From sequence record MK327931.1: a DNA stretch of 64,000 bases; one strand, given 5' to 3'. A program made the translations under genes and the position numbers. The notes below the pieces were generated by a model, which saw only the letters and a list, made by a program, of their open reading frames with translations, ran no database searches and had not been told where the DNA came from. Shown one piece after another: positions 26,966 through 64,000 of this stretch (position 1 is the first letter of the stretch; every line of letters starts with the position of its first letter). The stretch comes from Escherichia phage vB_EcoM_G17.

Positions 26966-27007
26966 GATCTATCCTTGATCTTCTAATGCACTCCATGTGC
27001 GTTTTTA

Positions 27008-27909: not shown

Positions 27910-28330
27910 AAAATAATACCTTGATCATTTGTAATGTTTCTGACATTACATCAGCAGAAAATTGAACATCAGTGTATTTTACCATAGTACTTTGAGTAAA
28001 GAAAGTAGCTTCAATATCTTCAAGGTCAAATGGTTCATCAAATAAATTAGTACTGAACATATCAGTTTTTTTCTTATAAGTCAACATAAACTTAGCACTG
28101 TATCTCAATACAATTTCATCTTTACTTACTAAAATTCGTGCAATGTTCTGTCTACCCAGTGTTGTAATGTTAACATTAAACGTATTCTTTCGTGCCTCAA
28201 CAATATCAACGAAATAACCATCACCTTGGTAAACGTTATGACGAACTTCTAATCCTTGTTGAACTGTATTGAACAGTGCGTCCTGGATAAAATAATTTGC
28301 AGTATCGATGTTTCCTAAAATATCTAACAT
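27857..28330 (-). CDS. FQxS-family paralogue (divergent)
   Basis: 157 aa; 'EATFFTQSTMV'. Confidence 0.5.
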   Translation of the reverse strand: MLDILGNIDTANYFIQDALFNTVQQGLEVRHNVYQGDGYFVDIVEARKNTFNVNITTLGRQNIARILVSKDEIVLRYSAKFMLTYKKKTDMFSTNLFDEPFDLEDIEATFFTQSTMVKYTDVQFSADVMSETLQMIKVLFYAFEQFREERNKVNNHR

Positions 28331-28860: not shown

Positions 28861-29273
28861 TATACACCTTCATATTCATCAAGAAAATCTTCGATAATCA
28901 TTTCAGCTTCATCCATATGCATAGCATCAACTTCAATGATGCGAACTTTAGATGCATCCCAAATCATAAAGCTAGGAACATTATCAGGCTCGTAGTCATT
29001 TTTGTACTGAACAGCATCATAACCTTGAGCAGTGCAATTCTCAATAAGTGAACGCCACTCATCATCACTGCCTAAATCTTCACACAGAAGCACGTTATCA
29101 ACATCAACTTCTAAGGTATGCAAGTATACTGTACATGCGTCTACTACGTTCAGTGGGCTTCTCAGCTTGCGTAATGCAGCTTCCAAAGCACTGTGTTTAC
29201 CTCCCATATGAAGACCACCATACGGGATATAAAAGTTATCAATTTTTACAGTACTCGCATGATACAGTTTCAT
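28860..29273 (-). CDS. hypothetical protein (137 aa), not a family member
   Basis: Minus-strand ORF starting 'MKLYHAST'; lacks the FQxS motif. Confidence 0.5.
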   Translation of the reverse strand: MKLYHASTVKIDNFYIPYGGLHMGGKHSALEAALRKLRSPLNVVDACTVYLHTLEVDVDNVLLCEDLGSDDEWRSLIENCTAQGYDAVQYKNDYEPDNVPSFMIWDASKVRIIEVDAMHMDEAEMIIEDFLDEYEGV

Positions 29274-29282
29274 ATTTCATTC

Positions 29283-29867
29283 CTATTTCAGTACTTTAGT
29301 CAATGCTTTCACAGCGGTTTCGAGTTGAGCATAGTCGTTAATTGTAAGGTAATGAATACCATGTGCCTTCATTTCAGCATCTATTTTACTATATAAATCA
29401 AACATGTCAAGGATATGATTGTATGCATATGAAGTATTTGAAACACACAATTCTTGGAACAAACGTTCTTCCAAGTCATTCACAACTTCTCCATGAATGT
29501 CAAGTACTACACCATCTTTGTAAGTGTAGTACTCTTCACTCCACTCTTCAGAAAGTCGGAACAGTAACGGATTCCCGCCGAACACTTCCATGTCATAGGA
29601 ATTTATCTCACTAAGTAGTGTTTCACCTGGTTCTGGTGTGAAGTCAAAATATGCGAGTGTTGTACCATCATAGTCCTTGAGTGATATACCAGTATGATTT
29701 AAGGTTACTTCACCATAATTATTATTCTTGAACTTGATTTTGATATTAATCTCAATGTATTTTATTGTCTCATCATCACTGAAATTGTAATCAACTTTAT
29801 ACTTTTTCCAAAGAAGTTTGATATCTTTGAAGTACTTTAATTTACTTTCAATTTCTTTAAAGTCCAT
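29283..29867 (-). CDS. hypothetical protein, possible FQxS-family member
   Basis: 194 aa; 'EERLFQELCVS'. Confidence 0.5.
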   Translation of the reverse strand: MDFKEIESKLKYFKDIKLLWKKYKVDYNFSDDETIKYIEINIKIKFKNNNYGEVTLNHTGISLKDYDGTTLAYFDFTPEPGETLLSEINSYDMEVFGGNPLLFRLSEEWSEEYYTYKDGVVLDIHGEVVNDLEERLFQELCVSNTSYAYNHILDMFDLYSKIDAEMKAHGIHYLTINDYAQLETAVKALTKVLK

Positions 29868-30459
29868 CTGGAACCACCATTTCTTGAATGTGCTTACATT
29901 TTATATTTGCCATATTGGTATGTAATATAATGCTGTGTTTACGCAATGATTTTACTTTGTAGCACTCATTGAGTACTGAAATAATTCCCCATAACTCTTC
30001 TACACTAATAGTGATAGGTTCACTTGTACTCAGTTGCATCAGTGCTGCTTGAACATCATCTTTGTTATTAATAGTGAACTGGATTCCTCTTTTGAGAATT
30101 TTAGTTTTTGGATTGTACTCAGCTAATACATCACCTTCTGGATAACCCTCATGAAGTAATAATGTTGTTTCAAAATCACCGCAGTTGAAGTTAATTTCAT
30201 CATAATCAGGTACACAAATGTTCCCTTCCCCGTACTCATTAGGTTCAGATTCTAGTGTTAAAATACGCTGAGTCTCATTGCTCAGGATGATAGAATCATT
30301 CCAGTACTGGGTAGTGAATGCTCTACGTTTCTTTTGAAAGCACATACTCGACATTGAACCATACTTCTTGTATATGGACTTCTTGAACTCAATAGCAGCA
30401 GGAGCCACCTTGATAACTTCACGAATTAAGTCAATAGCTTCTTGATAACTTTTTCTCAT
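29857..30459 (-). CDS. hypothetical protein (200 aa)
   Basis: Minus-strand ORF in the array; motif not evident. Confidence 0.5.
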   Translation of the reverse strand: MRKSYQEAIDLIREVIKVAPAAIEFKKSIYKKYGSMSSMCFQKKRRAFTTQYWNDSIILSNETQRILTLESEPNEYGEGNICVPDYDEINFNCGDFETTLLLHEGYPEGDVLAEYNPKTKILKRGIQFTINNKDDVQAALMQLSTSEPITISVEELWGIISVLNECYKVKSLRKHSIILHTNMANIKCKHIQEMVVPDGL

Positions 30460-53975: not shown

Positions 53976-54207
53976 TTATCTCATTCTGTAACTTAAGCAT
54001 CAAAATTTGCATATTAATTTTTTGTAAAAGGTGCTTGATAAATTTCTGTGCCATTTCTTCTTGTTCTTTTGTACCAAGATAAAATAACAGATTAAATTCT
54101 GATAATCGCAAAGAAAAATCTTCATCACCACCCTTTAAACAAAAATCCCTGTACTTTGTAGCGTACAAATATTGGTTTACCTTTTTATAATACCCTGTGT
54201 TTTGCAT
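53941..54207 (-). CDS. LGTNYQE-family small protein
   Basis: 88 aa; 'FYLGTKEQEE'. Confidence 0.5.
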   Translation of the reverse strand: MQNTGYYKKVNQYLYATKYRDFCLKGGDEDFSLRLSEFNLLFYLGTKEQEEMAQKFIKHLLQKINMQILMLKLQNEINEYESRNSSGS

Positions 54208-54395
54208 ACTATCTCCGTTCGCAACGAATTTATATAATAATGAACAAATTGTTCTTGTGAACGTGTTCCAAGAAAAATAAACATATCAAACTCTGTTGTT
54301 TTTAAATTCAATGCATCTTTTGTAAAATTCCTGTTGAATTCCCTGTACTTTTGGGTCTTCCATTCTTGATTAATTGTCTTGTATATCGATTTCAA
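54177..54395 (-). CDS. LGTNYQE-family small protein
   Basis: 72 aa; 'IFLGTRSQEQ'. Confidence 0.5.
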   Translation of the reverse strand: MKSIYKTINQEWKTQKYREFNRNFTKDALNLKTTEFDMFIFLGTRSQEQFVHYYINSLRTEIVCKTQGIIKR

Positions 54396-54696
54396 TGATT
54401 CTCCCTGATGTACCTTGTATTAGCTTATCATACATATCGAGCATCACTTTTTGAATACTAATTAGTACTGGCATCGTGCAAATATCAATGTCGTATACTA
54501 AGCTGTACTGGAATAATTCATCTTCCTGCATTTGTACTAAATTAGGTAAAGGATAATTGTCTGCCTCTTCATCCTGGTACTTGAAATGCATAACACCATC
54601 CTTTTTGTACAAAAGAATGTCAATATCACCTAACTCATCAGCATAACCAAAAATACATATACTCGATGTTTTTGCTATATTAAATTTCATCTCCAC
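54370..54696 (-). CDS. FQxS-family paralogue
   Basis: 108 aa; 'MQEDELFQYSLVYD'. Confidence 0.55.
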   Translation of the reverse strand: MEMKFNIAKTSSICIFGYADELGDIDILLYKKDGVMHFKYQDEEADNYPLPNLVQMQEDELFQYSLVYDIDICTMPVLISIQKVMLDMYDKLIQGTSGRIIEIDIQDN

Positions 54697-54932
54697 CTCT
54701 CTCCGTCAGCACAAGAGTACTGGTACGTTGTCGTTAGGGTAGGGACCATGTTTGTAATGGGCATATTATTAACAATAACGGTAACAGGCATAAGAATCGT
54801 CTCTACTCTACTCTGTCCTGTCCTTGTACAATTCATCTTCTGCATTTCATCTGAATCCATGAAATACAATACAAATGGTGCAATCCCAAGAACAATACAC
54901 AAGACGATAAGGAAATTTAAAAAATTTAACAT
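54687..54932 (-). CDS. small membrane protein
   Basis: 81 aa; N-terminal hydrophobic helix 'FLNFLIVLCIVLGIAPFVLYF'. Confidence 0.45.
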   Translation of the reverse strand: MLNFLNFLIVLCIVLGIAPFVLYFMDSDEMQKMNCTRTGQSRVETILMPVTVIVNNMPITNMVPTLTTTYQYSCADGERWR

Positions 54933-54991
54933 AATTTTTACCCTATGATTAACGTTAGTGTACTATATCAGTAATGAAAAGTACTGTCAAG

Positions 54992-55396
54992 CTAGTATTG
55001 CACTGTTCTAATGAAAGTACCTTTACTCATGGATTTAAGCTTATGAACCTCTTCCTGCATACCCTTAATTAACCCTAAAGGTATAGGTAAATCATGTACT
55101 AAGCTGTACTGAAAGTATTCTTCTTCAGATAAAGTACTAACATCTGGAACGCCAATTTTAGTTATATAATCTTGATGTGTTGACCAATAAATTATATCTT
55201 CAGTACTATTGTACTCCCCATATACTGAACAATATTGATGAATATCTTTCCTGTACCCTTGAGCAATAAAGAACTTATCTAATGCATTACCAGCATTAAT
55301 AGAATTTACTTCGATTGTCACAGTACTTGAGCTTGTATAACTCTTAATATTATCAGTACTCTTAATACTCAACGATGTGTTCTTCATAATCACCAT
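54992..55396 (-). CDS. FQxS-family paralogue
   Basis: 134 aa; 'LSEEEYFQYSLVHD'. Confidence 0.55.
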   Translation of the reverse strand: MVIMKNTSLSIKSTDNIKSYTSSSTVTIEVNSINAGNALDKFFIAQGYRKDIHQYCSVYGEYNSTEDIIYWSTHQDYITKIGVPDVSTLSEEEYFQYSLVHDLPIPLGLIKGMQEEVHKLKSMSKGTFIRTVQY

Positions 55397-55706
55397 TAGG
55401 CTCCTGTTTAGATTCTTTCATTAGTACTATCATCTTATGTACTAATGGCATAGGGAACTCTAAATCCCATACTAATGATTCCTGGAAGTATTCCTCTGGT
55501 GATAAAGTACTTAAATCTTTAATATCAACGTGCTTGTATATTTTATTTTCGTAATTAACAAATGATATATATAAATCACTAACATAAGAATCATAGGTAA
55601 TTGTGAATGGCTTACCCTTGTAATCCATTACATCTCTACATAGACTACTTTTGATATATGTATGTTCAAATGATTTATATACCTTGAGTTGTATATTAGT
55701 TTTCAT
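55362..55706 (-). CDS. FQxS-family paralogue
   Basis: 114 aa; 'LSPEEYFQESLVWD'. Confidence 0.55.
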   Translation of the reverse strand: MKTNIQLKVYKSFEHTYIKSSLCRDVMDYKGKPFTITYDSYVSDLYISFVNYENKIYKHVDIKDLSTLSPEEYFQESLVWDLEFPMPLVHKMIVLMKESKQEPNGDYEEHIVEY

Positions 55707-55971
55707 ATTTCTCTTTATTAGCTTGTTTGGTTTTATAGTGAATTAAATCTATTAATGTAATCAAGTACAACGTCAAATAGTACTCTTGTTGATCTGTACC
55801 TAATGATACAAAGAACTTGTGCTCATAGATTAAAACCTGTTTCTCTTCAAATGGACATTTAATCCTCTGTATAGGCTTAAGTAAATGATAGTACTTATTA
55901 AATCTATGATACATTTCTAGTTCTGTCAGTACTTTCATATTAAACACATACTCCATTAGCTGTAGCATCAC
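55696..55971 (-). CDS. LGTNYQE-family small protein
   Basis: 91 aa; 'FVSLGTDQQEY'. Confidence 0.5.
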   Translation of the reverse strand: MMLQLMEYVFNMKVLTELEMYHRFNKYYHLLKPIQRIKCPFEEKQVLIYEHKFFVSLGTDQQEYYLTLYLITLIDLIHYKTKQANKEKYEN

Positions 55972-56161
55972 GTAAAGCTGTCAAATACTTCTGTACGGCT
56001 TGCTCTTGCTTATTTGTACCTAAAAGTATATACATCCATAATTCACTGTAATGTACATCTTGTGTATAAGGGTCATTGTAACTTTTTGATAATATAGCAT
56101 CAAATTCAGATGCATGAACCCTTGTGAACTTAAGAATATCTTGTTGTGTTATGATTCTCAT
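55940..56161 (-). CDS. LGTNYQE-family small protein
   Basis: 73 aa; 'ILLGTNKQEQ'. Confidence 0.55.
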   Translation of the reverse strand: MRIITQQDILKFTRVHASEFDAILSKSYNDPYTQDVHYSELWMYILLGTNKQEQAVQKYLTALRDATANGVCV

Positions 56162-56373
56162 ATCTTTTCCTGTACAATCTGTATAAGAATACCTATGTGT
56201 GAATTAACAGTTCTCTCTTGATGCTGTGTTCCTAAGAGTGTCAGTACTATCATATCTGAACGCAAAAGATTTTTTTCAAGTTCACTTATATCAGTTCTTG
56301 AATCAAGTGCCATATATTTGTGATTATTCTTCCTGAATAGTGCCAAGTACTCTTGGTTTGATATTATCTTCAT
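56158..56373 (-). CDS. LGTNYQE-family small protein
   Basis: 71 aa; 'TLLGTQHQER'. Confidence 0.55.
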   Translation of the reverse strand: MKIISNQEYLALFRKNNHKYMALDSRTDISELEKNLLRSDMIVLTLLGTQHQERTVNSHIGILIQIVQEKI

Positions 56374-56585
56374 AGTTTACTTTTAATTTCCATTAAAAGT
56401 GCTCTAATATGCTCATTGACAAATCGCTCTTGGGAATCTGTGTCTAGGGTGAGAAGCATTCTTAAATCGGAACCTCTGATGGTATATTCTAAATCATTCT
56501 TTGATTCTCGCATAAGTTTCTGAAAGGATGAGAAGTGTAATCCCATGAGTTCAATGTATTCTGCTGTTCCTAGTGGTTTTGGCAT
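56370..56585 (-). CDS. LGTNYQE-family small protein
   Basis: 71 aa; 'LTLDTDSQER'. Confidence 0.5.
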   Translation of the reverse strand: MPKPLGTAEYIELMGLHFSSFQKLMRESKNDLEYTIRGSDLRMLLTLDTDSQERFVNEHIRALLMEIKSKL

Positions 56586-56803
56586 TTTAGTTCAATAGCT
56601 CGTTTAAGTGTATTAATATAATCTTTAATGTCGTGTTCTTGATAGTTCGTTCCAAGGGTAGCTAGAACATAGACTTCATTTCTCTTAATAATTTTATCCA
56701 TATCTGGTATATCTGATGTGTTAATGACGAAGAGCTTCAAAAACAGTCCATTTATGATTGTTAGGTATTCTACATCGGTAATGATTTTCATTTGCATTTG
56801 CAT
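56570..56803 (-). CDS. LGTNYQE-family small protein
   Basis: 77 aa; 'ATLGTNYQEH'. Confidence 0.55.
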   Translation of the reverse strand: MQMQMKIITDVEYLTIINGLFLKLFVINTSDIPDMDKIIKRNEVYVLATLGTNYQEHDIKDYINTLKRAIELKCQNH

Positions 56804-57009
56804 TTTCTCAGTACTGATTCTTTAAGTTCATTGATGTAGCACTCTACATATTCTTCTTGTAGGTTTGTTCCGATATGTAACAGTACTCTTAAATCTGCTC
56901 TCAGTACTTCTTTGTCATCTTCATCTATATCAGACAGTGTTATGTTTAAGAATTTACTTGAACTCTCTATAAGTAATATTACTGAATCACCTTTGCTTAA
57001 AATTTTCAT
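56788..57009 (-). CDS. LGTNYQE-family small protein
   Basis: 73 aa; 'LHIGTNLQEE'. Confidence 0.55.
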   Translation of the reverse strand: MKILSKGDSVILLIESSSKFLNITLSDIDEDDKEVLRADLRVLLHIGTNLQEEYVECYINELKESVLRKCKCK

Positions 57010-57217
57010 AATCTCTTTTTGCTTTCCTCGCCAAAAGGTACATATACGATTCTTCGTATTGTGCTTGGTAGTTTGTGTTTAAGAGTCGAAACAACTTCTG
57101 TTCTGCTAGAACTAGTTGCTTATCTTCATAACAACGGTAGCGTATCAACTTTTTGTATTCGATGTTGATTACATCCATTACTATAAGCCCATGTTCATCA
57201 TCTGTCAAGTGTTTCAT
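56987..57217 (-). CDS. LGTNYQE-family small protein
   Basis: 76 aa; 'RLLNTNYQAQ'. Confidence 0.5.
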   Translation of the reverse strand: MKHLTDDEHGLIVMDVINIEYKKLIRYRCYEDKQLVLAEQKLFRLLNTNYQAQYEESYMYLLARKAKRDYENFKQR

Positions 57218-57456
57218 GCATTTTTTCTTTTTCTTATATGTTTAGTTAAAAGGTATATTAGTTTTCTGATGTATTCTTCTTGATAGTTTGTTCCTAAGAG
57301 TGCAAGAAGTTTTGCTTCAACTAAAGCTAGTTGTCGTTCTTCGAATGTGTGTTCCAGTATGTACTTGGGGTTTGATTTTTTAGCGTAAGCACTATTAGTC
57401 TTCATTACAATCTTATGATATTCATTAGCTGTTAGGATTTTTAAATACTTGATCAT
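57214..57456 (-). CDS. LGTNYQE-family small protein
   Basis: 80 aa; 'ALLGTNYQEE'. Confidence 0.55.
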   Translation of the reverse strand: MIKYLKILTANEYHKIVMKTNSAYAKKSNPKYILEHTFEERQLALVEAKLLALLGTNYQEEYIRKLIYLLTKHIRKRKNA

Positions 57457-57676
57457 GTATCTTTTCCTTTATAGAGAATTTAAGATATCGAAGCATACTT
57501 TCAATGTAATACTCTTGTCTGTCAGTGCCAAGAAAGTACATGAGTTGAATGTATAAAACTTCTGCACTCCTTTCCGCTGGAGACTTGTTTGTGTCGTTTG
57601 GAAGTTGATTTGTATGTTTTCTTGATTTAATTAGTCGTTCTTTTAACTCATCGTCTGTTAAGTATTTCATTTTCAT
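57425..57676 (-). CDS. LGTNYQE-family small protein
   Basis: 83 aa; 'PAERSAEVLYIQLMYFLGTDRQEYY'. Confidence 0.55.
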   Translation of the reverse strand: MKMKYLTDDELKERLIKSRKHTNQLPNDTNKSPAERSAEVLYIQLMYFLGTDRQEYYIESMLRYLKFSIKEKIHDQVFKNPNS

Positions 57677-57902
57677 TTACTTTTTCCTTAATAGTGATTT
57701 TAAGATATCTAATCATACGTGCAACATATTCCTCTTGTCTATCAGTTCCCAGAAGATATGGTAGTGATTGGAATAATACTTCTGCACTCCTTTCTGCTGG
57801 GGTTTGGTTTAGGTCAATTGGACGTTTATTGGTATATCTCTTGGCACGAACTAATCTCTCGACGTATTCATTATAGGTTAAGTATATCATTTCATTTTGC
57901 AT
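57648..57902 (-). CDS. LGTNYQE-family small protein
   Basis: 84 aa; 'PAERSAEVLFQSLPYLLGTDRQEEY' (close to the preceding copy). Confidence 0.55.
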   Translation of the reverse strand: MQNEMIYLTYNEYVERLVRAKRYTNKRPIDLNQTPAERSAEVLFQSLPYLLGTDRQEEYVARMIRYLKITIKEKVNENEILNRR

Positions 57903-58122
57903 TTACTTTTTCCTTAATACTCATTATAAGATGTTCAATCATATTTTGAACCATAAATTCTTGTTTATCAGTTCCAAGAACGTATGGTAGCTTCTGAAAC
58001 AATACATTTGCAGATACTTCAGATATTGATTGATTTGGAACGAACTTAAGAGTAATGTTTTTGGTTTTTAACATCTTCTCTTGAAATTCTTCATTCGTTA
58101 AGTATATCATTTCATTTTGCAT
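57892..58122 (-). CDS. LGTNYQE-family small protein
   Basis: 76 aa; 'YVLGTDKQEF'. Confidence 0.55.
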   Translation of the reverse strand: MQNEMIYLTNEEFQEKMLKTKNITLKFVPNQSISEVSANVLFQKLPYVLGTDKQEFMVQNMIEHLIMSIKEKVNAK

Positions 58123-58338
58123 TTACATTCTCTCATATATATTTTGGGTTAAAAGGTCAATCCAGATTTCCACATATCGTTGTTGGTGTTGCGTCCCTAA
58201 CAGTACACCCAACTTAGCTTCACACTCTAATAACAATCTGGTTTTGTATGGTAGACTTTGGAATCCTATAGTAGCATCTAATTTGGTAATTGCATAGTTG
58301 ATTCGGATGAATCTTTCTTGCAATGTGATGTTGTTCAT
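58123..58338 (-). CDS. LGTNYQE-family small protein
   Basis: 71 aa; 'VLLGTQHQQR'. Confidence 0.55.
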   Translation of the reverse strand: MNNITLQERFIRINYAITKLDATIGFQSLPYKTRLLLECEAKLGVLLGTQHQQRYVEIWIDLLTQNIYERM

Positions 58339-58625
58339 TTCTTAGTACACCTCAGTGGTTGGGTCATTTGATAAAAGTACAGCTTACCTTTGATTTCCAG
58401 TAGTAACTCCGCGATTAAGCGATTTACTTCTGTATCTTGATAGTTTGTTCCTAAGAATACACCCATCTTTAACTCACGCATCATAATCATTTTCTTACTG
58501 TGTTGAATTTCTGGGTTGTGATAGATTGTATTACGTTTGTGCGTAATTTTTGTCATACGCTCGGTATATTCATCTTTACTTAAATTGATCATTTGCATGT
58601 TCATCAACCTCACATTTATTTTCAA
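58335..58625 (-). CDS. LGTNYQE-family small protein
   Basis: 96 aa; 'VFLGTNYQDT'. Confidence 0.55.
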   Translation of the reverse strand: MKINVRLMNMQMINLSKDEYTERMTKITHKRNTIYHNPEIQHSKKMIMMRELKMGVFLGTNYQDTEVNRLIAELLLEIKGKLYFYQMTQPLRCTKK

Positions 58626-58627
58626 TA

Positions 58628-58894
58628 CTATTCTTTAGTTTGTAGATATAGTTTTCTTCCAATGTATCTCTTAAGTGCGATTATGTATTCATCTACATAA
58701 TACTCCTGATAGTTTGTTCCTATGAATGCACCCACCTTTAACTCAAGTTTCATAATCATCTTATTTCCGTGTTTAATGACTTCTCCGTGATGGATTTCAT
58801 TAAGTCCAGGTGCAATTTTCACCAGGCGTTCTTTATATTTTGCTTGAGATAATTTAATCATTTTCATGTTAATTACCCTTACATTTATTTTCAA
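58628..58894 (-). CDS. LGTNYQE-family small protein
   Basis: 88 aa; 'AFIGTNYQEY'. Confidence 0.55.
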   Translation of the reverse strand: MKINVRVINMKMIKLSQAKYKERLVKIAPGLNEIHHGEVIKHGNKMIMKLELKVGAFIGTNYQEYYVDEYIIALKRYIGRKLYLQTKE

Positions 58895-59099
58895 TACTAT
58901 TCATGAGTTCTATAAGATAGTTTTCTACCTTACCTTCCTGATAGTTAGTCCCTAGGAAGTTGCACAACACGGCTTCTATGATTTTGATTTTCCTGATATC
59001 AGGCTTCAATCTTTTGTTATTGAATATTTGAATCCTTATATCTCTGGATGCATTTAAACGTTTTTGATATTCATGGTAAGTTAAATGAATCATTTTCAT
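58869..59099 (-). CDS. LGTNYQE-family small protein
   Basis: 76 aa; 'NFLGTNYQEG'. Confidence 0.55.
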   Translation of the reverse strand: MKMIHLTYHEYQKRLNASRDIRIQIFNNKRLKPDIRKIKIIEAVLCNFLGTNYQEGKVENYLIELMNSIENKCKGN

Positions 59100-59314
59100 T
59101 TACGTTTAACCTCTCGCTGGAGGGCATCAATTAACATCAGTACAGCATTCTCTTGATAGTTTGTTCCTAAGACTGAAAGCATCTTTATCTCATTTACTAA
59201 AATCAACTTCTTTGAGGGTTCAATAATGTGACTATCATAAACGGCCTTACGTGCTGGATAAGTTTTCGCCAGTATAACATAAAATTCGTCTTTACTTAAA
59301 TTAATCATTTGCAT
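59096..59314 (-). CDS. LGTNYQE-family small protein
   Basis: 72 aa; 'SVLGTNYQEN'. Confidence 0.55.
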   Translation of the reverse strand: MQMINLSKDEFYVILAKTYPARKAVYDSHIIEPSKKLILVNEIKMLSVLGTNYQENAVLMLIDALQREVKRK

Positions 59315-59523
59315 TTACTTTTAACCTCTTTCTGTAGAGCGTCAATCCATAGATCTACATACATTTGTTGATAGTTTGTGCCTAAGAGTGCACCTACATA
59401 GAGTTCAGTTACTAGTGCGTGCTTAAGGTTAGCTTGGATGCTCTTATCGCTTGATATCATTCTCCTTCTGCTTCCACATGTTTTCAGGAGTCTGATGTAT
59501 TCAAAGCCTTGTAAATTTCTCAT
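59305..59523 (-). CDS. LGTNYQE-family small protein
   Basis: 72 aa; 'ALLGTNYQQM'. Confidence 0.55.
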   Translation of the reverse strand: MRNLQGFEYIRLLKTCGSRRRMISSDKSIQANLKHALVTELYVGALLGTNYQQMYVDLWIDALQKEVKSKCK

Positions 59524-59735
59524 ATTTTGGATACCACCTTGTTACGTAAGGAACTTAATAATACGTCAGTGTAGATGTTTTGATAGTTTGTCCCTACGAA
59601 TACACCCAACTTCATTTCAGCTATTATAACACATTTGTCCTCTTGTGCAATAGATTTGTTTAACACAATACTATACACTTTTGATTTGATAGTTTGTAAC
59701 CTCCAATGATACTGATACTCATTAAGGATTATCAT
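59520..59735 (-). CDS. LGTNYQE-family small protein
   Basis: 71 aa; 'VFVGTNYQNI'. Confidence 0.55.
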   Translation of the reverse strand: MIILNEYQYHWRLQTIKSKVYSIVLNKSIAQEDKCVIIAEMKLGVFVGTNYQNIYTDVLLSSLRNKVVSKI

Positions 59736-59982
59736 TCTCTTTCCTCCAGATTTCGGTTCTCATGTGTTGGCAGTGTGCATCAATATATTGCTCTATCGAT
59801 CTGGCGATTGCTGTTTTATCAGTGCCTGTCATCAGTACAAGCATCTCGGCCTCACAGTGAAGTAAACGCATGATATCATAGGGTAATATTTCAGATACCG
59901 TGTCATAGTGTTTCTGTGCCAGTGTCTGCAATAGTTTACAATACATTTTGTGATTTAGTCTTTGTCGCATTGTTTCTTCCAT
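59722..59982 (-). CDS. small protein, divergent LGTNYQE-family member
   Basis: 86 aa; 'LVLMTGTDKTAI' in the equivalent position. Confidence 0.45.
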   Translation of the reverse strand: MEETMRQRLNHKMYCKLLQTLAQKHYDTVSEILPYDIMRLLHCEAEMLVLMTGTDKTAIARSIEQYIDAHCQHMRTEIWRKENDNP

Positions 59983-60227
59983 TCTCTTCTGGCTTGGCGG
60001 GTTTTATCTGATATTTCGTTTCTCAATGCAGAGATATATCGTAGAGTGAACAGTTCTTGATAGTTAGTCCCTATGAATTTATTAAGATATACATCAGCGT
60101 TGACGATATCAGCTTCACGGGAATTATAAAGTTTATTGTTAGTGCGAAGGGTGTTTAGAAGAGAGAAGAGGGCAGTCTGATACTCAGTGCTTGATAAAGT
60201 TTTCATATTTTTCCACAATTCGTTCAT
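59955..60227 (-). CDS. LGTNYQE-family small protein
   Basis: 90 aa; 'KFIGTNYQEL'. Confidence 0.55.
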   Translation of the reverse strand: MNELWKNMKTLSSTEYQTALFSLLNTLRTNNKLYNSREADIVNADVYLNKFIGTNYQELFTLRYISALRNEISDKTRQARREWKKQCDKD

Positions 60228-60441
60228 TTAGTTTTATCTGTATAAGATCCATTAGTTGTTCAAGATAATCGGTACAATATTTCTCTTGATATTGGGTTCC
60301 CACAAAGTACAGCAACCATAGCTCATGAACTTTAACTTTCATCTCGTTCCATGAAAGTGCATCGTCATCGTAGATTACTCTTGCTTCTGGGGTGAGCTTT
60401 CGAATTCTAAGTGAATATTCATCGTCCGTCAAGTGTTTCAT
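60184..60441 (-). CDS. LGTNYQE-family small protein
   Basis: 85 aa; 'YFVGTQYQEK'. Confidence 0.55.
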   Translation of the reverse strand: MKHLTDDEYSLRIRKLTPEARVIYDDDALSWNEMKVKVHELWLLYFVGTQYQEKYCTDYLEQLMDLIQIKLNERIVEKYENFIKH

Positions 60442-60596
60442 TTACATTTATCCCTTATTAGATTTGTGAGTGCAACTATGTGTTCATGGATATAAAAATT
60501 TTGATGAGAAGTTCCAAGAAAGTACAGCATCCATCCCTCACTCTGCTCGACTTCTAGTTTAGTATCGAGTTGGTCAGATATGTTAATGAAAACCAT
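60438..60596 (-). CDS. LGTNYQE-family small protein (52 aa, below track cutoff)
   Basis: My translation: 'MVFINISDQLDTKLEVEQSEGWMLYFLGTSHQNFYIHEHIVALTNLIRDKCK'; fills the 60.44-60.60 kb gap; ATGA / TAATG overlaps with neighbours. Confidence 0.4.
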   Translation of the reverse strand: MVFINISDQLDTKLEVEQSEGWMLYFLGTSHQNFYIHEHIVALTNLIRDKCK

Positions 60597-60853
60597 TAGT
60601 TCTTTTCCTTTCTTTCTATTTGTTTCATAAGAACATCGATATACTCACCCGCAAACCTATTCTGATACTGCGTCCCCATGAATTCCAACATCCATACTTC
60701 AGCAACCTTTTCTTCAATTTCAGTCCATTGTAAGTACATCATAGTGAAGTAAATGGTGTTCTCTTTTTTTCTGGCACTCTTAGCACGGGCCTCGTATTCA
60801 AAGTTATTAATGATGTTCATTACATTTGTCCATAATGTAATTCTTGAGTGCAA
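60596..60853 (-). CDS. LGTNYQE-family small protein
   Basis: 85 aa; 'EFMGTQYQNR'; start may be internal. Confidence 0.5.
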   Translation of the reverse strand: MHSRITLWTNVMNIINNFEYEARAKSARKKENTIYFTMMYLQWTEIEEKVAEVWMLEFMGTQYQNRFAGEYIDVLMKQIERKEKN

Positions 60854-61034
60854 CTATGTGTGCAATAACATACTCTTCCTGGAAGTTCGTCCCCAGTACA
60901 GCCAACATGCGTACATCGGTGGTGTTTATCTTGTGTTCCAATCGAGTTAAACCTTTTATTTGTAAAAGGGTATCGTATTTGTTTAATGCATCAATGATAA
61001 TTCTCATCTTCTCAATATTACTTAAATGTTTCAT
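60807..61034 (-). CDS. LGTNYQE-family small protein
   Basis: 75 aa; 'AVLGTNFQEE'. Confidence 0.55.
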   Translation of the reverse strand: MKHLSNIEKMRIIIDALNKYDTLLQIKGLTRLEHKINTTDVRMLAVLGTNFQEEYVIAHIVALKNYIMDKCNEHH

Positions 61035-61243
61035 AGTTTACTCTTAATGTAGTTCTGAAGTTCAATTAAGTATTTCCCTACATAATACTCCTGAAAGTCT
61101 GTATCCAAAAATGCACCCAAAAGTAAATCCTTCTCCATTGCCCTTGATAAGTTAAGGTCTGCATTTGAAAGGTATATAAGTAATATTTCAGTCTGGACAG
61201 AATTAAAACGTTTCTTATATTCTTCAGGTGTTAATATAATCAT
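61031..61243 (-). CDS. LGTNYQE-family small protein
   Basis: 70 aa; 'LNLSRAMEKDLLLGAFLDTDFQEYY'. Confidence 0.55.
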   Translation of the reverse strand: MIILTPEEYKKRFNSVQTEILLIYLSNADLNLSRAMEKDLLLGAFLDTDFQEYYVGKYLIELQNYIKSKL

Positions 61244-61455
61244 AATTTGCTCCTGATGTATTTCTCAAGAGATGACAAATACTTTTCCTCATAATACTCC
61301 TGATAGTCTGTTCCCAAGAATGCACCCATAAGTATTTCATTTTCCAATACCTCGGCTAAGTTTAAATCAGACGTCTCTTCGTATATTATGAGGATTTCAA
61401 GTTGTCTGGCAGCGATGCGTTCAGTATATTGATATGAGTTTTCTATAATAATCAT
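61240..61455 (-). CDS. LGTNYQE-family small protein
   Basis: 71 aa; 'LNLAEVLENEILMGAFLGTDYQEYY' (close to the preceding copy). Confidence 0.55.
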   Translation of the reverse strand: MIIIENSYQYTERIAARQLEILIIYEETSDLNLAEVLENEILMGAFLGTDYQEYYEEKYLSSLEKYIRSKL

Positions 61456-61661
61456 ATTTTACTCTTAATATCTTCTATTAAAAATCGAATCCATTCTTCA
61501 ACATAATCTTCCTGATGGTTTGTGTTCAGTACAGCCAACATGCGGATCTCTGCTCTTGCAACTTCAATTTCAGTTTTAGGCAGGTCTTTGCTGATATCCA
61601 CCATTAAGTCCATGTATTTCAAGATAAGACCGTATGATTGGGTTCGTGTTATAGTTTTCAT
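61452..61661 (-). CDS. LGTNYQE-family small protein
   Basis: 69 aa; 'AVLNTNHQED'. Confidence 0.55.
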   Translation of the reverse strand: MKTITRTQSYGLILKYMDLMVDISKDLPKTEIEVARAEIRMLAVLNTNHQEDYVEEWIRFLIEDIKSKI

Positions 61662-61858
61662 TGTTTCCTCGTGGACAATATTTTATTTTTCAATGTATCC
61701 ATATATTGCCACACCCATCTACCCTGATAGTTTGTTCCCAATGTAATCAAAAGGTATAACTCCATTCGTTCTACGTGTGTGTCTGTGTTGTAAATCTTTA
61801 CGTAGTTTTTACGTAACAGTGATTGATATTCTTCTTTATTTAAAATACGCATTTTCAT
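61658..61858 (-). CDS. LGTNYQE-family small protein
   Basis: 66 aa; 'ITLGTNYQGR'. Confidence 0.55.
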   Translation of the reverse strand: MKMRILNKEEYQSLLRKNYVKIYNTDTHVERMELYLLITLGTNYQGRWVWQYMDTLKNKILSTRKQ

Positions 61859-62082
61859 AGTTTACTCGTTATATCTTCAATTAAATACCAAATCCAATCG
61901 TTGACATACCTTTCCTGAAAGTTAGTTCCAATGAATAGTGCCATAATTAATTCACGCTTATAGGCAATACCACGGTCATGGGACTTATACATTATCATAG
62001 CCATGTTATTGATAAGTCTTTCGTGGTGCTGTTCTTTAGTTAAAATACGCATAGGGACTCCCTTAAAATTAATATCAATCAT
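61855..62082 (-). CDS. LGTNYQE-family small protein, first gene of the array
   Basis: 'LFIGTNFQER'; probable start is Met 'MRILTKEQ' at 62052, preceded by RBS AAGGGAG. Confidence 0.5.
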   Translation of the reverse strand: MIDINFKGVPMRILTKEQHHERLINNMAMIMYKSHDRGIAYKRELIMALFIGTNFQERYVNDWIWYLIEDITSKL

Positions 62083-62110
62083 ATTTTATACGATTCATAT
62101 AAAAAGTCAA
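62083..62110 (-). promoter_or_regulatory. candidate sigma70-type promoter heading the LGTNYQE-family array
   Basis: Minus strand: TTGACT (plus 62105-62110) - 16 nt - TAAAAT (plus 62083-62088), ~25 nt upstream of RBS/ATG at 62052. Confidence 0.4.
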
Positions 62111-62203
62111 TAACATTTTATTCGTAATACCCCTTTATCGAAGTCGCTAAGGTTACCCGCCCTTTAGCCCCCTACGCATTTTGCCATAGTCCAATCCCTT
62201 TTA

Positions 62204-62268
62204 TTTCAAAAAAGTCAAGGGATTACCTATGCATTTTTTTAACGCATAATTTTAAAAACGCCTTGACT
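62204..62268. repeat. 13-bp perfect inverted repeat flanking a 38-bp A/T-rich core
   Basis: AAAAAAGTCAAGG (62204-62216) and CCTTGACTTTTTT (62256-62268); nearby triple 'ACGCATT' motif. Possible operator upstream of the array promoter. Confidence 0.4.
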
Positions 62269-62301
62269 TTTTTCTGAATCAGTACTAGATCCCTTTACGC
62301 A

Positions 62302-62511
62302 TTAATCCTTCGTTACGCTAACGATTATCTGTGTATCCCCGTAGTCCTGCCATACTTCCACGCCATCGGTCGCCCTGGTTAGTCGTGCTGTCATCTGCTT
62401 AATGGTCTTAGGCTTTAGTGGAACCTGTTGCAGTACTGTACGCATAGCATCATTGACGTTATCATGTACGCCTGCAATAGTACCTAGAACGCTGTATACT
62501 GTATAGAACAT
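62302..62511 (-). CDS. small hypothetical protein (69 aa)
   Basis: Minus-strand ORF in a locally G+C-richer segment. Confidence 0.45.
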   Translation of the reverse strand: MFYTVYSVLGTIAGVHDNVNDAMRTVLQQVPLKPKTIKQMTARLTRATDGVEVWQDYGDTQIIVSVTKD

Positions 62512-62579
62512 ATGTATGCCCTCCTGATATAGTTAAGGCCGCTACAAGGCGGCCTATGATGTTTGGTGATGTGTAACGC

Positions 62580-62981
62580 TTACAGTCCTAAGATAGTGCG
62601 TGCTTCGTTACGTTCCGTACACAGCTGCATGATGTGAGCAAGTAAGTCCTTGCTAATGTATCCGGTGTTCATAGCTTCACGAATAGATACATCATACGCA
62701 CCGAACCCCGTGCGAACGATACGCACATCATTCAGGTTAGTATTATAGATACCGCCGAGATCAACGGCTTCGAATACTACATCAACAGAATATTCATTGT
62801 TGCCATCGTGGAAGTTTTCCAGTGCAATAGTATTGGATACCGCCCAACGTTTGCAGTTTCCAATGATGCGGCACTGTTCCGGTTGGATAGTACCATTACT
62901 TACAGCGTACTCCAGTGCATCTTTACCAAAAGTCCGAGCCAGTACTAAAACGTCAGCGAAGGAATTGATTGAGAAGGTCAT
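62580..62981 (-). CDS. hypothetical protein (133 aa)
   Basis: Track ORF extends to 63014; RBS AAGGAG sits 8 nt upstream of the internal Met 'MTFSINS' (62981), so that is the likely start. Confidence 0.55.
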   Translation of the reverse strand: MTFSINSFADVLVLARTFGKDALEYAVSNGTIQPEQCRIIGNCKRWAVSNTIALENFHDGNNEYSVDVVFEAVDLGGIYNTNLNDVRIVRTGFGAYDVSIREAMNTGYISKDLLAHIMQLCTERNEARTILGL

Positions 62982-63000
62982 GATAAAACTCCTTAATTTA

Positions 63001-63063
63001 GGAGGGAGAACCATTTCCCCCTCTCTATGTAAAACATTATACTTGATTCTAAGTACTATGCAA
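63001..63063 (-). promoter_or_regulatory. sigma70-type promoter plus conserved leader hairpin (copy 1)
   Basis: Minus strand: TTGCAT (plus 63058-63063) - 16 nt - TATAAT (plus 63036-63041), then conserved 'GTTTTACATAGAG', then hairpin AGGGGG/CUCCCU (plus 63003-63022), then RBS and ATG at 62981. Confidence 0.55.
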
Positions 63064-63070
63064 GTACTTT

Positions 63071-63403
63071 TTACATTTTAATACCTGGATTCAGGTAGCG
63101 GTGAGATCCATATTCTGGATCGGTTTCGGTCCAGTACTGTAAATCGATAGTACCTTTCGCGTTAATCTTGTCTACCAGCTTATTCATCTTAGTGTATACT
63201 ACGTCAGCATCGATGCGTTTAAAGCCAGTAGCTTTAGTGAAGTAGTAGTGATTTGCTTCACTATCATTAAGGATATACCGAGCACCGTTTGCAGTCTGTG
63301 CGATAATGATTGAGTATTCTACTTCCCGATCCAGACCGTCGATGAATACAGATGAAACATTGGTACGGATGAAAGCTTTAACGATAGCGATTGAAGTACT
63401 CAT
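63071..63403 (-). CDS. hypothetical protein (110 aa)
   Basis: Minus-strand ORF; higher local G+C than the paralogue arrays. Confidence 0.55.
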   Translation of the reverse strand: MSTSIAIVKAFIRTNVSSVFIDGLDREVEYSIIIAQTANGARYILNDSEANHYYFTKATGFKRIDADVVYTKMNKLVDKINAKGTIDLQYWTETDPEYGSHRYLNPGIKM

Positions 63404-63649
63404 TTTGAATCTCCTAACTTTGTGGGCCGTCGCACCATTGCCGCCCTACGAGATACATTATTGCAGTACTGATATACTTTGTCAATACTTTTTTTATTAA
63501 TAGTTTTCACCCCACCAGCAGATAGTTACTCACCGTTATTAACTATATATTTTAGATACACTCCTGCACCCAGTGGGCTAGTTTTTGTCTATGCGTATAT
63601 AATAGCAAAGGGACTGACCGGAGTCAATCCCTTTTTTTATTCTTTTTTG

Positions 63650-63850
63650 TTAGATGATTCTCCAATCTTCTACGATCATGGTAAGATAACGGACCATCGA
63701 TTCAAGTGATTCGAATTCCCGATAGTCTGCCGCTCCACCAGCGGTACAAGTACAGCCGATTAAACCATTTTGTAATTCCTTAATCTGTACATCGATAAGG
63801 TTGGCTTTAGCTTCTTTCAGTACTTCAACCAGGGCGATAGCGATAGACAT
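63650..63850 (-). CDS. small hypothetical protein (66 aa)
   Basis: Minus-strand ORF immediately downstream of promoter/leader copy 2. Confidence 0.5.
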   Translation of the reverse strand: MSIAIALVEVLKEAKANLIDVQIKELQNGLIGCTCTAGGAADYREFESLESMVRYLTMIVEDWRII

Positions 63851-63871
63851 AATGTTTTACTCCAAACTATT

Positions 63872-63933
63872 GACGGGAGAACTATTCCCCCGCTCTATGT
63901 AAAACATTATACATTACTGGTTAGTACTGTCAA
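63872..63933 (-). promoter_or_regulatory. sigma70-type promoter plus conserved leader hairpin (copy 2)
   Basis: Minus strand: TTGACA (plus 63928-63933) - 16 nt - TATAAT (plus 63906-63911), same 20-nt 'GTATAATGTTTTACATAGAG' block, hairpin CGGGGG/CUCCCG (plus 63874-63892) with compensatory closing pair versus copy 1. Confidence 0.6.
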
Positions 63934-64000
63934 ATAGTTTTATGAAATATCTTCGATGTAGTCGGCCCATTTCATTTTTTCAGTACTGTCAATGGCTACC

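What the first reader, a model, noticed from the sequence alone, without database searches (positions are those of the whole stretch)
63001..63933. Duplicated promoter-plus-leader element with a compensatory base-pair change in its hairpin
Upstream of genes 62580..62981 and 63650..63850 the same ~60-bp element recurs: a near-consensus sigma70 promoter (TTGCAT or TTGACA, 16-nt spacer, TATAAT), an identical 20-nt block 'GTATAATGTTTTACATAGAG', then a 6-bp hairpin. Copy 1 has stem AGGGGG/CUCCCU; copy 2 has CGGGGG/CUCCCG. The closing pair switches A-U to C-G while pairing is preserved, which argues that the stem is under selection. This looks like a regulated early-promoter/operator or leader-RNA module.
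Basis: seen in the sequence. Interest (0 to 1): 0.55.

Follow-up and report, generated by a model that had tools for sequence, protein, structure and literature searches.

The report
Repeated early promoter–hairpin gene cassettes
The two look-alike elements are the last two of about 25 copies of a standard [quoted passage not shown] cassette that heads nearly every small gene in the 20.7-kb terminal repeat of a 350-kb E. coli jumbo phage; this is a variant of the promoter/stem-loop cassettes already described in T4-like phages, so it is a tidy rather than a surprising finding.

Summary
Both copies exist as described, on the minus strand, and the 20-nt block is exact (0 of 100 shuffles give two matches).

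It is a family rather than a duplication. The window is Escherichia phage Sharanji (Asteriusvirus, 350 kb). A covariance model finds 26 such modules in the whole genome, all on one strand. Of these, 25 lie inside the inferred 20,668-bp direct terminal repeat (DTR), whose inner edge is at window ~62150.

Each module has these parts:
- an A-tract and AGTACT
- a -35 box (TTGACA or TTGCAW), a 16-nt spacer and TATAAT
- a CAT start, 7 nt downstream of the -10 box
- a 5-nt tail
- a 7-10 bp G-run/C-run hairpin with a 3-5 nt loop
- an A-rich linker, SD and ATG of an ORFan

Sixteen distinct stems all pair fully, with compensatory changes at four levels. Seven of the eight wobble pairs have G in the 5' arm, and every wobble would be an A·C mismatch on the other strand. 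This indicates a sense-strand RNA fold. No U-tract follows the hairpin, and Rfam has no match.

Modules mark cassette boundaries and indels between related phages, and they swap between orthologous genes.

The closest known kind is the PeSL (promoter-early stem-loop) of RB49/phi1. There the stem-loop usually sits inside the promoter; here it is always in the transcribed leader. Verdict: a new variant of a known kind. The hairpin's exact role is inferred, not shown.

The parts
63064..63073 (-). Copy 1: A-tract plus GTAC immediately upstream of the -35 box (TAAAAAGTAC), UP-element-like. AGTACT overlaps the first T of the -35 box.
   Evidence: AGTACT sits at this fixed position in 17 of 27 modules.
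63058..63063 (-). Copy 1: -35 hexamer TTGCAT.
63036..63041 (-). Copy 1: -10 hexamer TATAAT, after a 16-nt spacer.
63028..63028 (-). Copy 1: predicted transcription start. It is the A of the conserved CAT, 7 nt after the -10 box. This is inferred, not mapped.
   Evidence: the spacing is 7 nt in 22 of 25 modules. Also.
63002..63023 (-). Copy 1: leader RNA hairpin GAGGGGGAA-AUGG-UUCUCCCUC (9 bp, one G·U).
   Evidence: (-15.9 kcal/mol, z -1.97).
62989..62994 (-). Copy 1: Shine-Dalgarno AAGGAG.
62580..62981 (-). Gene served by copy 1 (Sharanji gp053, 133 aa, unknown function). The true start is probably ATG 62981.
63928..63933 (-). Copy 2: -35 hexamer TTGACA.
   Evidence: (12/12 consensus match).
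63906..63911 (-). Copy 2: -10 hexamer TATAAT.
63898..63898 (-). Copy 2: predicted transcription start (inferred).
63873..63893 (-). Copy 2: leader RNA hairpin GCGGGGGAA-UAG-UUCUCCCGU (9 bp, two G·U).
   Evidence: (-14.3 kcal/mol, z -2.97).
63860..63863 (-). Copy 2: Shine-Dalgarno GGAG.
63650..63850 (-). Gene served by copy 2 (gp055, 66 aa, unknown function).
63401..63485 (-). Third promoter-leader in the interval, upstream of gp054. It has -35 TTGACA at 63480-63485, -10 AATAAT at 63457-63462 preceded by TG, the leader GUAGGGCGGCAAUGGUGCGACGGCCCAC at 63422-63449, SD at 63411-63415 and ATG at 63401-63403. It is a different leader type and is not a significantly stable fold.
   Evidence: (z +0.26).
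62150..64000 (.). Innermost 1.85 kb of the phage's direct terminal repeat. The repeat continues beyond the window to ext 82817, that is 18,817 nt beyond the window's right end. The module family is confined to this repeat.

Best explanation
The two elements are members of a family of about 25 self-contained early-gene expression cassettes. The cassettes fill the 20.7-kb direct terminal repeat of an Asteriusvirus jumbo phage.

Each cassette contains:
- a very strong host sigma70-type promoter: A-tract with AGTACT, a -35 box, a 16-nt spacer that often ends in AGTACTG (which gives an extended -10 TG), and TATAAT
- a CAT start site
- a 5-nt tail
- a 7-10 bp G-run/C-run hairpin
- an A-rich unstructured linker, a Shine-Dalgarno sequence and the ATG of a small ORFan

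Proposed working. Host RNA polymerase fires these promoters as soon as the DNA enters the cell. Every transcript therefore begins with the same small, stable RNA stem-loop, which ends 16-23 nt before the start codon, about where the upstream edge of the ribosome's footprint lies.

The hairpin acts at the RNA level as a structural element, not a sequence-specific one. I think it most likely has two roles. First, it is a 5'-proximal protective and insulating structure that gives every cassette the same leader context. Second, in read-through transcripts from the cassette upstream, it is a partial attenuator or 3'-end barrier.

At the DNA level, the roughly 95-bp repeated modules provide homology for recombination. 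Recombination inserts, deletes and swaps cassettes, and swaps modules between genes.

Shown here: the anatomy, copy number, confinement to the terminal repeat, selection for pairing on the sense strand, and association with indels and module swaps. Inferred: promoter activity, the exact start site, and what the hairpin does to the RNA.
For: Identity and context:
- The window is 100% identical to phage Sharanji. All genes in the region are on the minus strand and are small hypothetical proteins.

Family size and location:
- Intergenic listings and hairpin and promoter censuses show the same module before gene after gene.
- Model R1 finds 26 unique modules at E<1e-3 in 350 kb, all on the minus strand. 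Twenty-five lie within ext 62987-81200.
- In vB_Ec-M-J all 28 hits lie inside the annotated DTR 1-21525, and none in the next 2.5 kb.
- The mapped DTR span in Sharanji is 82817-62150+1 = 20,668 nt. This equals the published DTR length.

Geometry:
- The layout is tightly constrained: start 7 nt after the -10 box, tail mode 5 nt, stem mode 8 bp, stem end to ATG 16-23 nt.

Selection on pairing:
- Sixteen distinct 7-level stems are all fully paired. Arms taken from different stems pair fully in only 15% of combinations.
- Both-sided changes are seen at levels 3, 4, 6 and 7. There are 7 G·U against 1 U·G.
- In the promoter-and-CAT listing, most DTR promoters are followed by the hairpin. I counted about 26 of about 31 by hand.
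- Outside the DTR, promoter-like sites almost never have one.

Not a canonical terminator:
- At most 3 T occur in the 8 nt after every stem.

Cassette behaviour:
- gp061 plus one module is absent from slurp01, and the breakpoint lies inside two identical flanking modules.
- EJP2 shares only a few ORFs, and its homology blocks start and end at modules.
- Nine of 20 synteny breaks against vB_Ec-M-J fall in module footprints that cover 12.5% of the DTR, P about 3e-4.
- Orthologous genes in EJP2 carry a different module allele, or a wholly different module.

Precedent:
- PeSL cassettes have the same parts and the same evolutionary behaviour (PMC2839356; PMC4122927).
Against: - No transcript data exist for any Asteriusvirus in the searched literature. 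Promoter use, the +1 position and the existence of the RNA hairpin in vivo are therefore inferred.
- If +1 is as predicted, the 5' tail is about 5 nt. From my recollection of the ompA-type 5'-stabiliser literature, that is at or beyond the length at which such hairpins still protect.
- Related Eneladusvirus promoters share the same core but mostly lack the hairpin. The hairpin is therefore not needed for promoter function, and its benefit may be subtle.
- G-run/C-run arms pair in several registers. The formal pair-count test on the model alignment is only modest: 86% paired against 77-81% when slid by one column.
- The stem set was partly selected by structure.
- In RB49, a similar U-tract-less stem-loop lowered downstream reporter expression as much as rrnB T1. 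Attenuation could therefore be the main role rather than a side role.
Confidence: 0.6

Rival explanations
1. The hairpin is chiefly a transcription attenuator or terminator for read-through from the upstream cassette, which is the original PeSL model. It keeps transcription flux from piling up along about 25 co-oriented strong promoters, and any effect on its own transcript is incidental.
For: - One RB49 PeSL stem-loop (GGGGATCACGTATCCCC, with no clear U-tract) lowered lacZ expression as much as rrnB T1 when placed between a promoter and the reporter (PMC2839356).
- Most cassettes here have no other terminator between them.
- The stems are G/C-rich and stable, at -10 to -17 kcal/mol.
Against: - Here the hairpin lies downstream of its own +1 in every copy. 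A strong terminator would also kill the cassette's own expression.
- In RB49 the stem-loop sits inside the promoter spacer, where this conflict does not arise.
- No U-tract follows: at most 3 T in 8 nt, and the sequence is A-rich instead.
- Canonical hairpin-plus-T-run terminators do exist nearby, for example window 63607-63634 and ext 67880, so the phage uses the standard form when it wants termination.
Confidence: 0.25
2. The hairpin is a recognition tag for a phage- or host-encoded RNA-binding factor that co-regulates all terminal-repeat transcripts. Candidates are a nut/boxB-like antiterminator loading site, or a translational or decay regulator that shuts off immediate-early genes.
For: - The position just downstream of early promoters and the size resemble lambda boxB (established knowledge).
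- The inner stem GAA/UUC is nearly constant: level 1 is A-U in 14 of 16 stems, level 2 is A-U in 10 of 16, and level 3 is G-C in 14 of 16.
- The element is genus-specific, as expected if it co-evolves with a phage factor.
Against: - Loops are not conserved: UAG, AUGG, AUGA, CGG, CAC, ACAUC, GCGGU and others.
- The outer stem sequence varies freely.
- There is no boxA-like constant element apart from the start region, which is also present in hairpin-less promoters of another genus.
- No candidate binding protein was identified.
Confidence: 0.12
3. The inverted repeat works at the DNA level, as an operator for a dimeric repressor or as a recombinase or cruciform target. The RNA fold would then be a by-product.
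For: - The PeSL authors speculated that the GGGG...CCCC motif might be bound by a recombination protein.
- Modules coincide with recombination breakpoints.
Against: - There are 8 G·T wobbles in 16 stems, 7 of them with G in the 5' arm. On the complementary strand they would be A·C mismatches, so the symmetry holds on one strand only.
- The half-site sequence differs between copies (GGGGAG, GAGGGG, GGCGGG, AGCGGG, GGTGGG, GGGATG). This is not what a sequence-specific DNA binder tolerates.
- Homologous recombination between 95-bp repeats explains the breakpoints without a dedicated site.
Confidence: 0.05

Closest known systems
PeSL (promoter-early stem-loop) cassettes of T4-type phages RB49/phi1, and PST/T4 and nt-1/KVP40 (Arbiol et al. 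2010, PMC2839356; Comeau et al. 2014, PMC4122927)
   Same: - A near-consensus sigma70 promoter with an A-rich stretch upstream.
- A G-run/C-run stem-loop containing G·T pairs.
- An SD and the ATG of a small ORFan.
- Dozens of co-oriented copies in a gene-plastic region.
- Copies flank indels and gene replacements between close relatives.

Sources: compared.
   Different: [quoted passage not shown] In PST it lies upstream of the promoter. It is therefore outside the cassette's own transcript.
- Here it always lies at about +6 to +27 of the cassette's own transcript, at a fixed distance from both the start site and the ATG.
- The host phage is an Asteriusvirus (350 kb), not a member of Straboviridae.
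- The array is confined to a long direct terminal repeat.
- AGTACT is built into the promoters here, but is absent from 20 kb of RB49.
- Terminator activity and mini-circles are untested here.
5'-terminal stabiliser stem-loops of bacterial and phage mRNAs (for example the E. coli ompA 5' UTR), cited from general knowledge
   Same: A small stable hairpin close to the 5' end of the message, upstream of an unstructured ribosome-binding region.
   Different: - The predicted single-stranded 5' tail here is about 5 nt, which is borderline for that mechanism.
- No decay data exist.
- The element here is a repeated, modular, recombining unit, not a single gene's leader.
Lambda-type nut sites (boxA plus the boxB hairpin in the leaders of the early operons), cited from general knowledge
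   Same: A short stem-loop transcribed just downstream of early promoters.
   Different: - boxB function depends on a conserved loop. Here the loops vary.
- There are about 25 sites rather than two.
- No boxA-like partner specific to the hairpin-bearing copies was found.
- No N-like protein was identified.
Pre-early region in the long terminal repeat of phage T5, cited from general knowledge
   Same: A long direct terminal repeat that carries small genes under strong host-type promoters, presumably the first genes expressed.
   Different: - No conserved leader hairpin family is known to me in T5.
- Stepwise DNA entry has not been shown for Asteriusvirus.

Membership tests
PeSL (promoter-early stem-loop) cassette | Near-consensus sigma70-type -35/-10 promoter with an AT-rich stretch upstream. 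| tested here: met
   The modules have TTGACA or TTGCAW, a 16-nt spacer and TATAAT, preceded by AAAAAGTAC.
PeSL (promoter-early stem-loop) cassette | An adjacent stable stem-loop, typically G(n)-loop-C(n), with G-T pairs. | tested here: met
   Stems are 7-10 bp G-run/C-run, at -10 to -17 kcal/mol. There are 8 wobble pairs in 16 distinct stems.
PeSL (promoter-early stem-loop) cassette | The cassette ends with the SD and start codon of a small gene, usually an ORFan, and is repeated many times in a hyperplastic region. | tested here: met
   There are 26 modules in Sharanji and 28 in vB_Ec-M-J. Downstream genes are of unknown function.
PeSL (promoter-early stem-loop) cassette | Copies coincide with insertions, deletions and replacements between close relatives. 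| tested here: met
   The gp061 cassette indel has its breakpoint within identical modules. EJP2 homology blocks are bounded by modules. Nine of 20 synteny breaks fall in 12.5% of the sequence, P about 3e-4. Modules are swapped at orthologous genes.
PeSL (promoter-early stem-loop) cassette | Stem-loop placed within or upstream of the promoter. The published subclasses are: between -35 and -10, overlapping either box, upstream of -35, or just before the start site. | tested here: not met
   Here the stem begins about 5 nt after the predicted +1 in essentially all copies. [quoted passage not shown] This depends on the inferred +1. The stem starts 11-14 nt after TATAAT, so it is downstream of any plausible start.
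PeSL (promoter-early stem-loop) cassette | The stem-loop acts as a transcription terminator or attenuator, and recombination yields mini-circles. | not testable with these tools
   This needs reporter assays, 3'-end mapping and inverse PCR. In sequence terms no U-tract follows the stems.
Intrinsic (Rho-independent) terminator | A G+C-rich hairpin immediately followed by a U-tract. | tested here: not met
   At most 3 T occur in the 8 nt after each of 25 stems, and the sequence is A-rich instead. The scan tool's terminator list for 44-64 kb includes neither module hairpin. Its one entry near copy 1 (63004-62989) is a weak 5-bp stem-loop that overlaps the SD.
Lambda-type nut site (boxA plus boxB) | A conserved hairpin loop and a conserved linear box, shared by all sites. 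| tested here: not met
   Loops differ among copies. The only constant linear block is the -10 and start region, which hairpin-less promoters in Eneladusvirus also have.
Any curated RNA family (Rfam 15) | A match to a covariance model. | tested here: not met
   No match at E<=1 in 18 kb that covers 14 of the modules.

The most novel reading that the evidence does not exclude
The leader hairpin may be a genus-specific RNA tag that places all of the roughly 25 immediate-early transcripts of the terminal repeat under one post-transcriptional switch. One option is a phage factor that binds the GAA/UUC-closed stem to stabilise these messages or to shut them off. Another is that the stem shields phage 5' ends from a host or phage RNA-targeting activity. 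Either would make it a leader-RNA regulon of a kind not described for phage early genes.
Probability: 0.12. Interest if true: 0.7.

Novelty: new variant of a known kind. Interest (0 to 1): 0.38.

Why it matters
It matters in four ways.

1. It gives a concrete, testable map of the immediate-early transcription units of Asteriusvirus jumbo phages. The genome papers I could search for this genus report no promoter analysis. About 25 promoters, start sites and leaders lie in the terminal repeat.

2. It extends the PeSL idea of mobile promoter/stem-loop cassettes that drive gene shuffling. That idea now reaches beyond the T4-like Straboviridae to the RaK2-like jumbo phages.

3. It shows an architecture in which the stem-loop is part of each cassette's own mRNA. 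This forces the question of whether such stem-loops are terminators, 5' stabilisers or both.

4. In practice the modules are compact, strong, insulated expression units. They also correct at least one start-codon annotation.

Tried and rejected
- **MAFFT alignment of the modules (A1).** It put the 5' arms in two registers.
- **Model-based alignment (A3) and pair counting.** These gave only modest contrast, because G-runs and C-runs pair when slid by one column. I therefore used a loop-anchored comparison of each copy's own fold and say so.
- **Leader peptide starting at the ATG in many loops (AAUGG, AAUGA).** Rejected. The frames and stops are inconsistent, and many loops have no ATG.
- **Sigma70-dependent pause element in the initial transcribed region.** There are only weak -10-like matches by eye. 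Not pursued.
- **Host origin of the gp054-type leader.** There is no match in 5,426 E. coli genomes.
- **Breadth in IMG/VR.** The GGGGAGAA...TTCTCCCC allele occurs in only two contigs, and the gp054 leader in only three. One contig, 348,532 bp and so of Asteriusvirus genome size, holds both. No extra diversity was gained.
- **Simple circular wrap of the GenBank record.** The assumption failed by 77 nt. I rebuilt the coordinates from overlaps instead.
- **Literature.** I found no promoter or hairpin analysis for Asteriusvirus. The rV5 and PA5oct papers report only generic promoters and terminators.
Full report
**What is in the sequence.**
All genes in window 60-64 kb are on the minus strand. 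Read on that strand, the two copies are as follows.

- Copy 1: TAAAAAGTAC-TTGCAT-(16 nt)-TATAAT-GTTTTAC-A(+1?)TAGA-[GAGGGGGAA AUGG UUCUCCCUC]-CTAAATT-AAGGAG-(7 nt)-ATG.
- Copy 2: TTGACA-(16 nt)-TATAAT-GTTTTAC-ATAGA-[GCGGGGGAA UAG UUCUCCCGU]-...GGAG-(9 nt)-ATG.

The coordinates were verified. Copy 2 is a 12/12 match to the sigma70 consensus. Both leaders fold into the described hairpin, extended to 9 bp. The energies are -15.9 and -14.3 kcal/mol, with z = -1.97 and -2.97.

**Where the window comes from.**
The region is 100% identical to Escherichia phage Sharanji (OR545507.1). This is an Asteriusvirus with a 350,079-bp record, and about 40 close relatives are in GenBank. I fetched the rest of the genome and joined it to the window. 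Below, "ext" coordinates equal window coordinates up to 64000 and continue rightwards.

**It is a family.**
Intergenic regions beyond the window's right end show the same module in front of gene after gene. A hairpin census, a promoter-plus-hairpin census and a promoter-plus-CAT census all recover it.

A covariance model built from 25 copies finds 26 unique modules at E<1e-3 in the whole genome.
- All are on the minus strand.
- Twenty-five lie between ext 62987 and 81200, and one lies at ext 110505.
- There are none elsewhere.
- Rfam has no match.

The geometry is tight:

| Feature | Value |
|---|---|
| -10 box to the A of a conserved CAT | 7 nt in 22 of 25 modules |
| Single-stranded 5' tail | mode 5 nt |
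| Stem | 7-10 bp, mode 8 |
| Loop | 3-5 nt |
| Stem end to ATG | 16-23 nt, mode 19 |
| Leader | about 45 nt |

**The array is the terminal repeat.**
- The Sharanji paper reports a 20,668-bp direct terminal repeat but does not place it (PMC11895373).
- In the related phage vB_Ec-M-J the repeat is annotated as 1-21525. It contains the orthologues of the three genes in the finding at 19.8-21.1 kb.
- All 28 model hits in the first 24 kb of that record lie inside the repeat.
- Its position 1 aligns to ext 82817, and its position 21525 aligns to window ~62150.
- The span 82817-62150+1 is 20,668, which is exactly the published length.

The two copies in the window are therefore the two innermost modules of a repeat that is essentially an array of these cassettes. 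Immediately inside the repeat, the gene organisation changes. There, small paralogous genes are mostly tightly packed or overlapping, and no modules are present.

**Is the stem selected, and on which molecule?**
I pooled 49 modules from Sharanji, slurp01 and EJP2 and found 36 distinct hairpins. Anchoring each on its own predicted loop gives 16 distinct seven-level stems.
- All 16 are fully paired.
- Arms taken from different stems pair fully in only 15% of combinations.
- Both-sided changes occur at levels 3, 4, 6 and 7. Examples are GGGGAG/CUCCCC, GAGGGG/CCCCUC, GGCGGG/CCCGCC, GGUGGGG/CCCCACU and GGGGAUGA/UCAUCCCU.
- There are 7 G·U pairs with G in the 5' arm and 1 U·G. On the complementary strand these would be A·C mismatches, so the fold is selected on the sense strand. 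The sense-strand RNA is the natural candidate.

Caveats apply.
- The arms are low-complexity runs that also pair when slid. The formal pair count on the model alignment is therefore only modest: 86% paired, against 77-81% when slid by one column.
- The stem set was partly chosen by structure.
- The least circular evidence is the promoter-anchored listing. Most DTR promoters there are followed by the hairpin; I counted about 26 of about 31 by hand. Promoter-like sites elsewhere in the genome almost never have one.

**Not a standard terminator and not an operator.**
- None of the 25 stems is followed by a U-tract. There are at most 3 T in 8 nt, and the linker is A-rich.
- Proper hairpin-plus-T-run terminators do occur nearby.
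- Stem sequences and loops vary too much for a sequence-specific DNA or RNA binder. Only the inner GAA/UUC is nearly constant.

**Cassette behaviour.**
- Sharanji gp061 is flanked by two identical modules. Phage slurp01 lacks gp061 and one module, and the alignment overlap of 99 nt lies within the module.
- Phage EJP2 has at least 15 modules in 9 kb but shares only a few ORFs with Sharanji. The homology blocks begin and end at modules.
- Against vB_Ec-M-J, 9 of 20 synteny-block boundaries fall in module footprints that cover 12.5% of the repeat (binomial P about 3e-4; the boundaries are not fully independent).
- At the orthologues of the two window genes, EJP2 carries different modules. Upstream of gp053 it has CGGGGG/CUCCCG in place of AGGGGG/CUCCCU. 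Upstream of gp055 it has an entirely different promoter type together with AGGGGG/CUCCCU. The SD and coding sequence stay conserved.

**Comparison with what is known.**
The closest described system is the PeSL of T4-type phages. It combines a sigma70-like promoter with an AT-rich upstream region, a G(n)-loop-C(n) stem-loop with G-T pairs, and the SD and ATG of ORFans. It is concentrated in hyperplastic regions and mediates indels and mini-circles. One stem-loop lowered reporter expression as strongly as rrnB T1 (PMC2839356; PMC4122927).

I read RB49's own PeSLs. [quoted passage not shown] In Sharanji the same parts occur in a different order: the stem-loop is always transcribed as the 5'-proximal part of the cassette's own mRNA. 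This is the one defining feature that is not met, and it is why I call this a variant and not a member.

- The promoter core (AAAAAGTACTTGCA...AGTACTGTATAATGTTTTACATAG) is shared with Yersinia phage fHe-Yen9-03 (Eneladusvirus), mostly without a hairpin.
- In two IMG/VR pattern scans, the one hairpin allele searched occurred only in a contig of Asteriusvirus genome size (348,532 bp) and in one 50-kb contig.
- The Asteriusvirus and RaK2-like papers I could search mention at most generic RpoD-like promoters.

**Mechanism, with confidence.**
Fairly secure (about 0.8): these are immediate-early expression cassettes driven by host sigma70 polymerase. Each has a selected RNA-level leader hairpin, and they behave as recombining modules.

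Less secure is what the hairpin does.
- My preferred reading has two parts. It is a structural 5'-proximal stabiliser and insulator that standardises the leader next to the ribosome-binding region. It also acts as a partial attenuator or 3'-end barrier in read-through RNA.
- The pure-attenuator reading (0.25) conflicts with the hairpin lying in its own transcript and with the lack of a U-tract.
- A dedicated binding-factor reading (0.12) conflicts with the variable loops.
- A DNA-level reading (0.05) conflicts with the wobble asymmetry.

**Verdict.**
This is a new variant of a known kind, of moderate interest.

Noticed in passing
window 63422-63462 (-), with L012 and L013: The -10 box plus leader of gp054 (AATAAT-GTATCTC-GTAGGGCGGCAATGGTGCGACGGCCCAC-AAAG) is about 86-89% identical to sequences upstream of unrelated small genes in Certrevirus phages. 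These are 150-kb rV5-like phages: Enterobacter phage vB_ExiM_F1M1E and Cronobacter phage PBES 02. Shorter matches in the same stretch (80-90% identical) occur in Klebsiella, Raoultella and Pectobacterium phages. The leader is absent from E. coli genomes, has no Rfam match, and is not a significantly stable fold (z +0.26). It may be a horizontally moving promoter-leader or a protein-binding leader. Unexplained.
   Followed up: partly
window 63545-63651 (-); further copies at L001 ~12178-12290 and ~15353-15470; L008 ~13380: A roughly 107-nt non-coding element is repeated three times in the terminal repeat. It is 75-88% conserved in distant RaK2-like genera (Klebsiella K64-1, Pectobacterium CBB, Erwinia and Yersinia phages), although its flanks are not. 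Its terminator-like hairpin carries a -35 box (TTGACT) in its loop and is followed by TATTAT, which is the classic PeSL arrangement. About 30 nt later comes a near-palindrome, CCCACTGGGTGC or CCCTATAGGGTGC. It is a candidate operator or small-RNA start.
   Followed up: partly
whole genome; in modules at -27 and -7 relative to the -10 box: The palindrome AGTACT occurs 902 times against 119 expected (7.6-fold). This is 2.4 times more than any other hexamer of the same composition. Its density is 6.4 per kb in the terminal repeat and 2.3 per kb elsewhere. It is 15-17-fold enriched in the early regions of EJP2 and of a Yersinia Eneladusvirus, and absent from 20 kb of RB49. It is built into the promoters at fixed positions but is far too frequent to be only that. 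Its function is unknown.
   Followed up: partly
window ~54000-62082 (-): Just inside the terminal repeat lies a run of about 33 small paralogous genes (52-106 aa). Many share a motif like (L/F)LGT(N/D/Q)(Y/F)QE..Y. Most are packed with overlapping stops and starts and have no modules between them, which contrasts sharply with the one-promoter-per-gene array next door.
   Followed up: no
window 62979-63014 (-): GenBank starts gp053 at the ATG inside the hairpin loop (63014). The ATG at 62981, with AAGGAG 7 nt upstream, is supported by the PHROG 10173 profile and by the annotation in vB_Ec-M-J. The start is probably mis-annotated.
   Followed up: yes
window ~62150 (in the gap 62083-62301): This is the inferred inner boundary of the 20,668-bp direct terminal repeat, which is not annotated in the Sharanji record. 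It was placed by homology to the annotated repeat end of vB_Ec-M-J (...GGGCGGGTAACCT|TTAGCGAC...).
   Followed up: yes
L002 ~15800-30100 (ext ~88-101 kb), outside the window: A second repeated cassette lies between eleven or so plus-strand paralogues of about 1.1 kb (gp106-118, one annotated as an RCC1-repeat protein). It has the hairpin GCCAGTAC-NNN-GTACTGGC with a T-run, followed by TATAATGAATAAAGGAGG. This is a terminator-plus-promoter unit of a different class.
   Followed up: no
window as a whole, compared with record OR545507.1: The window runs across the record's end-to-start junction but is 77 nt shorter than a simple join of 303631-350079 with 1-17628. The record ends may overlap, or the source differs slightly there.
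   Followed up: no
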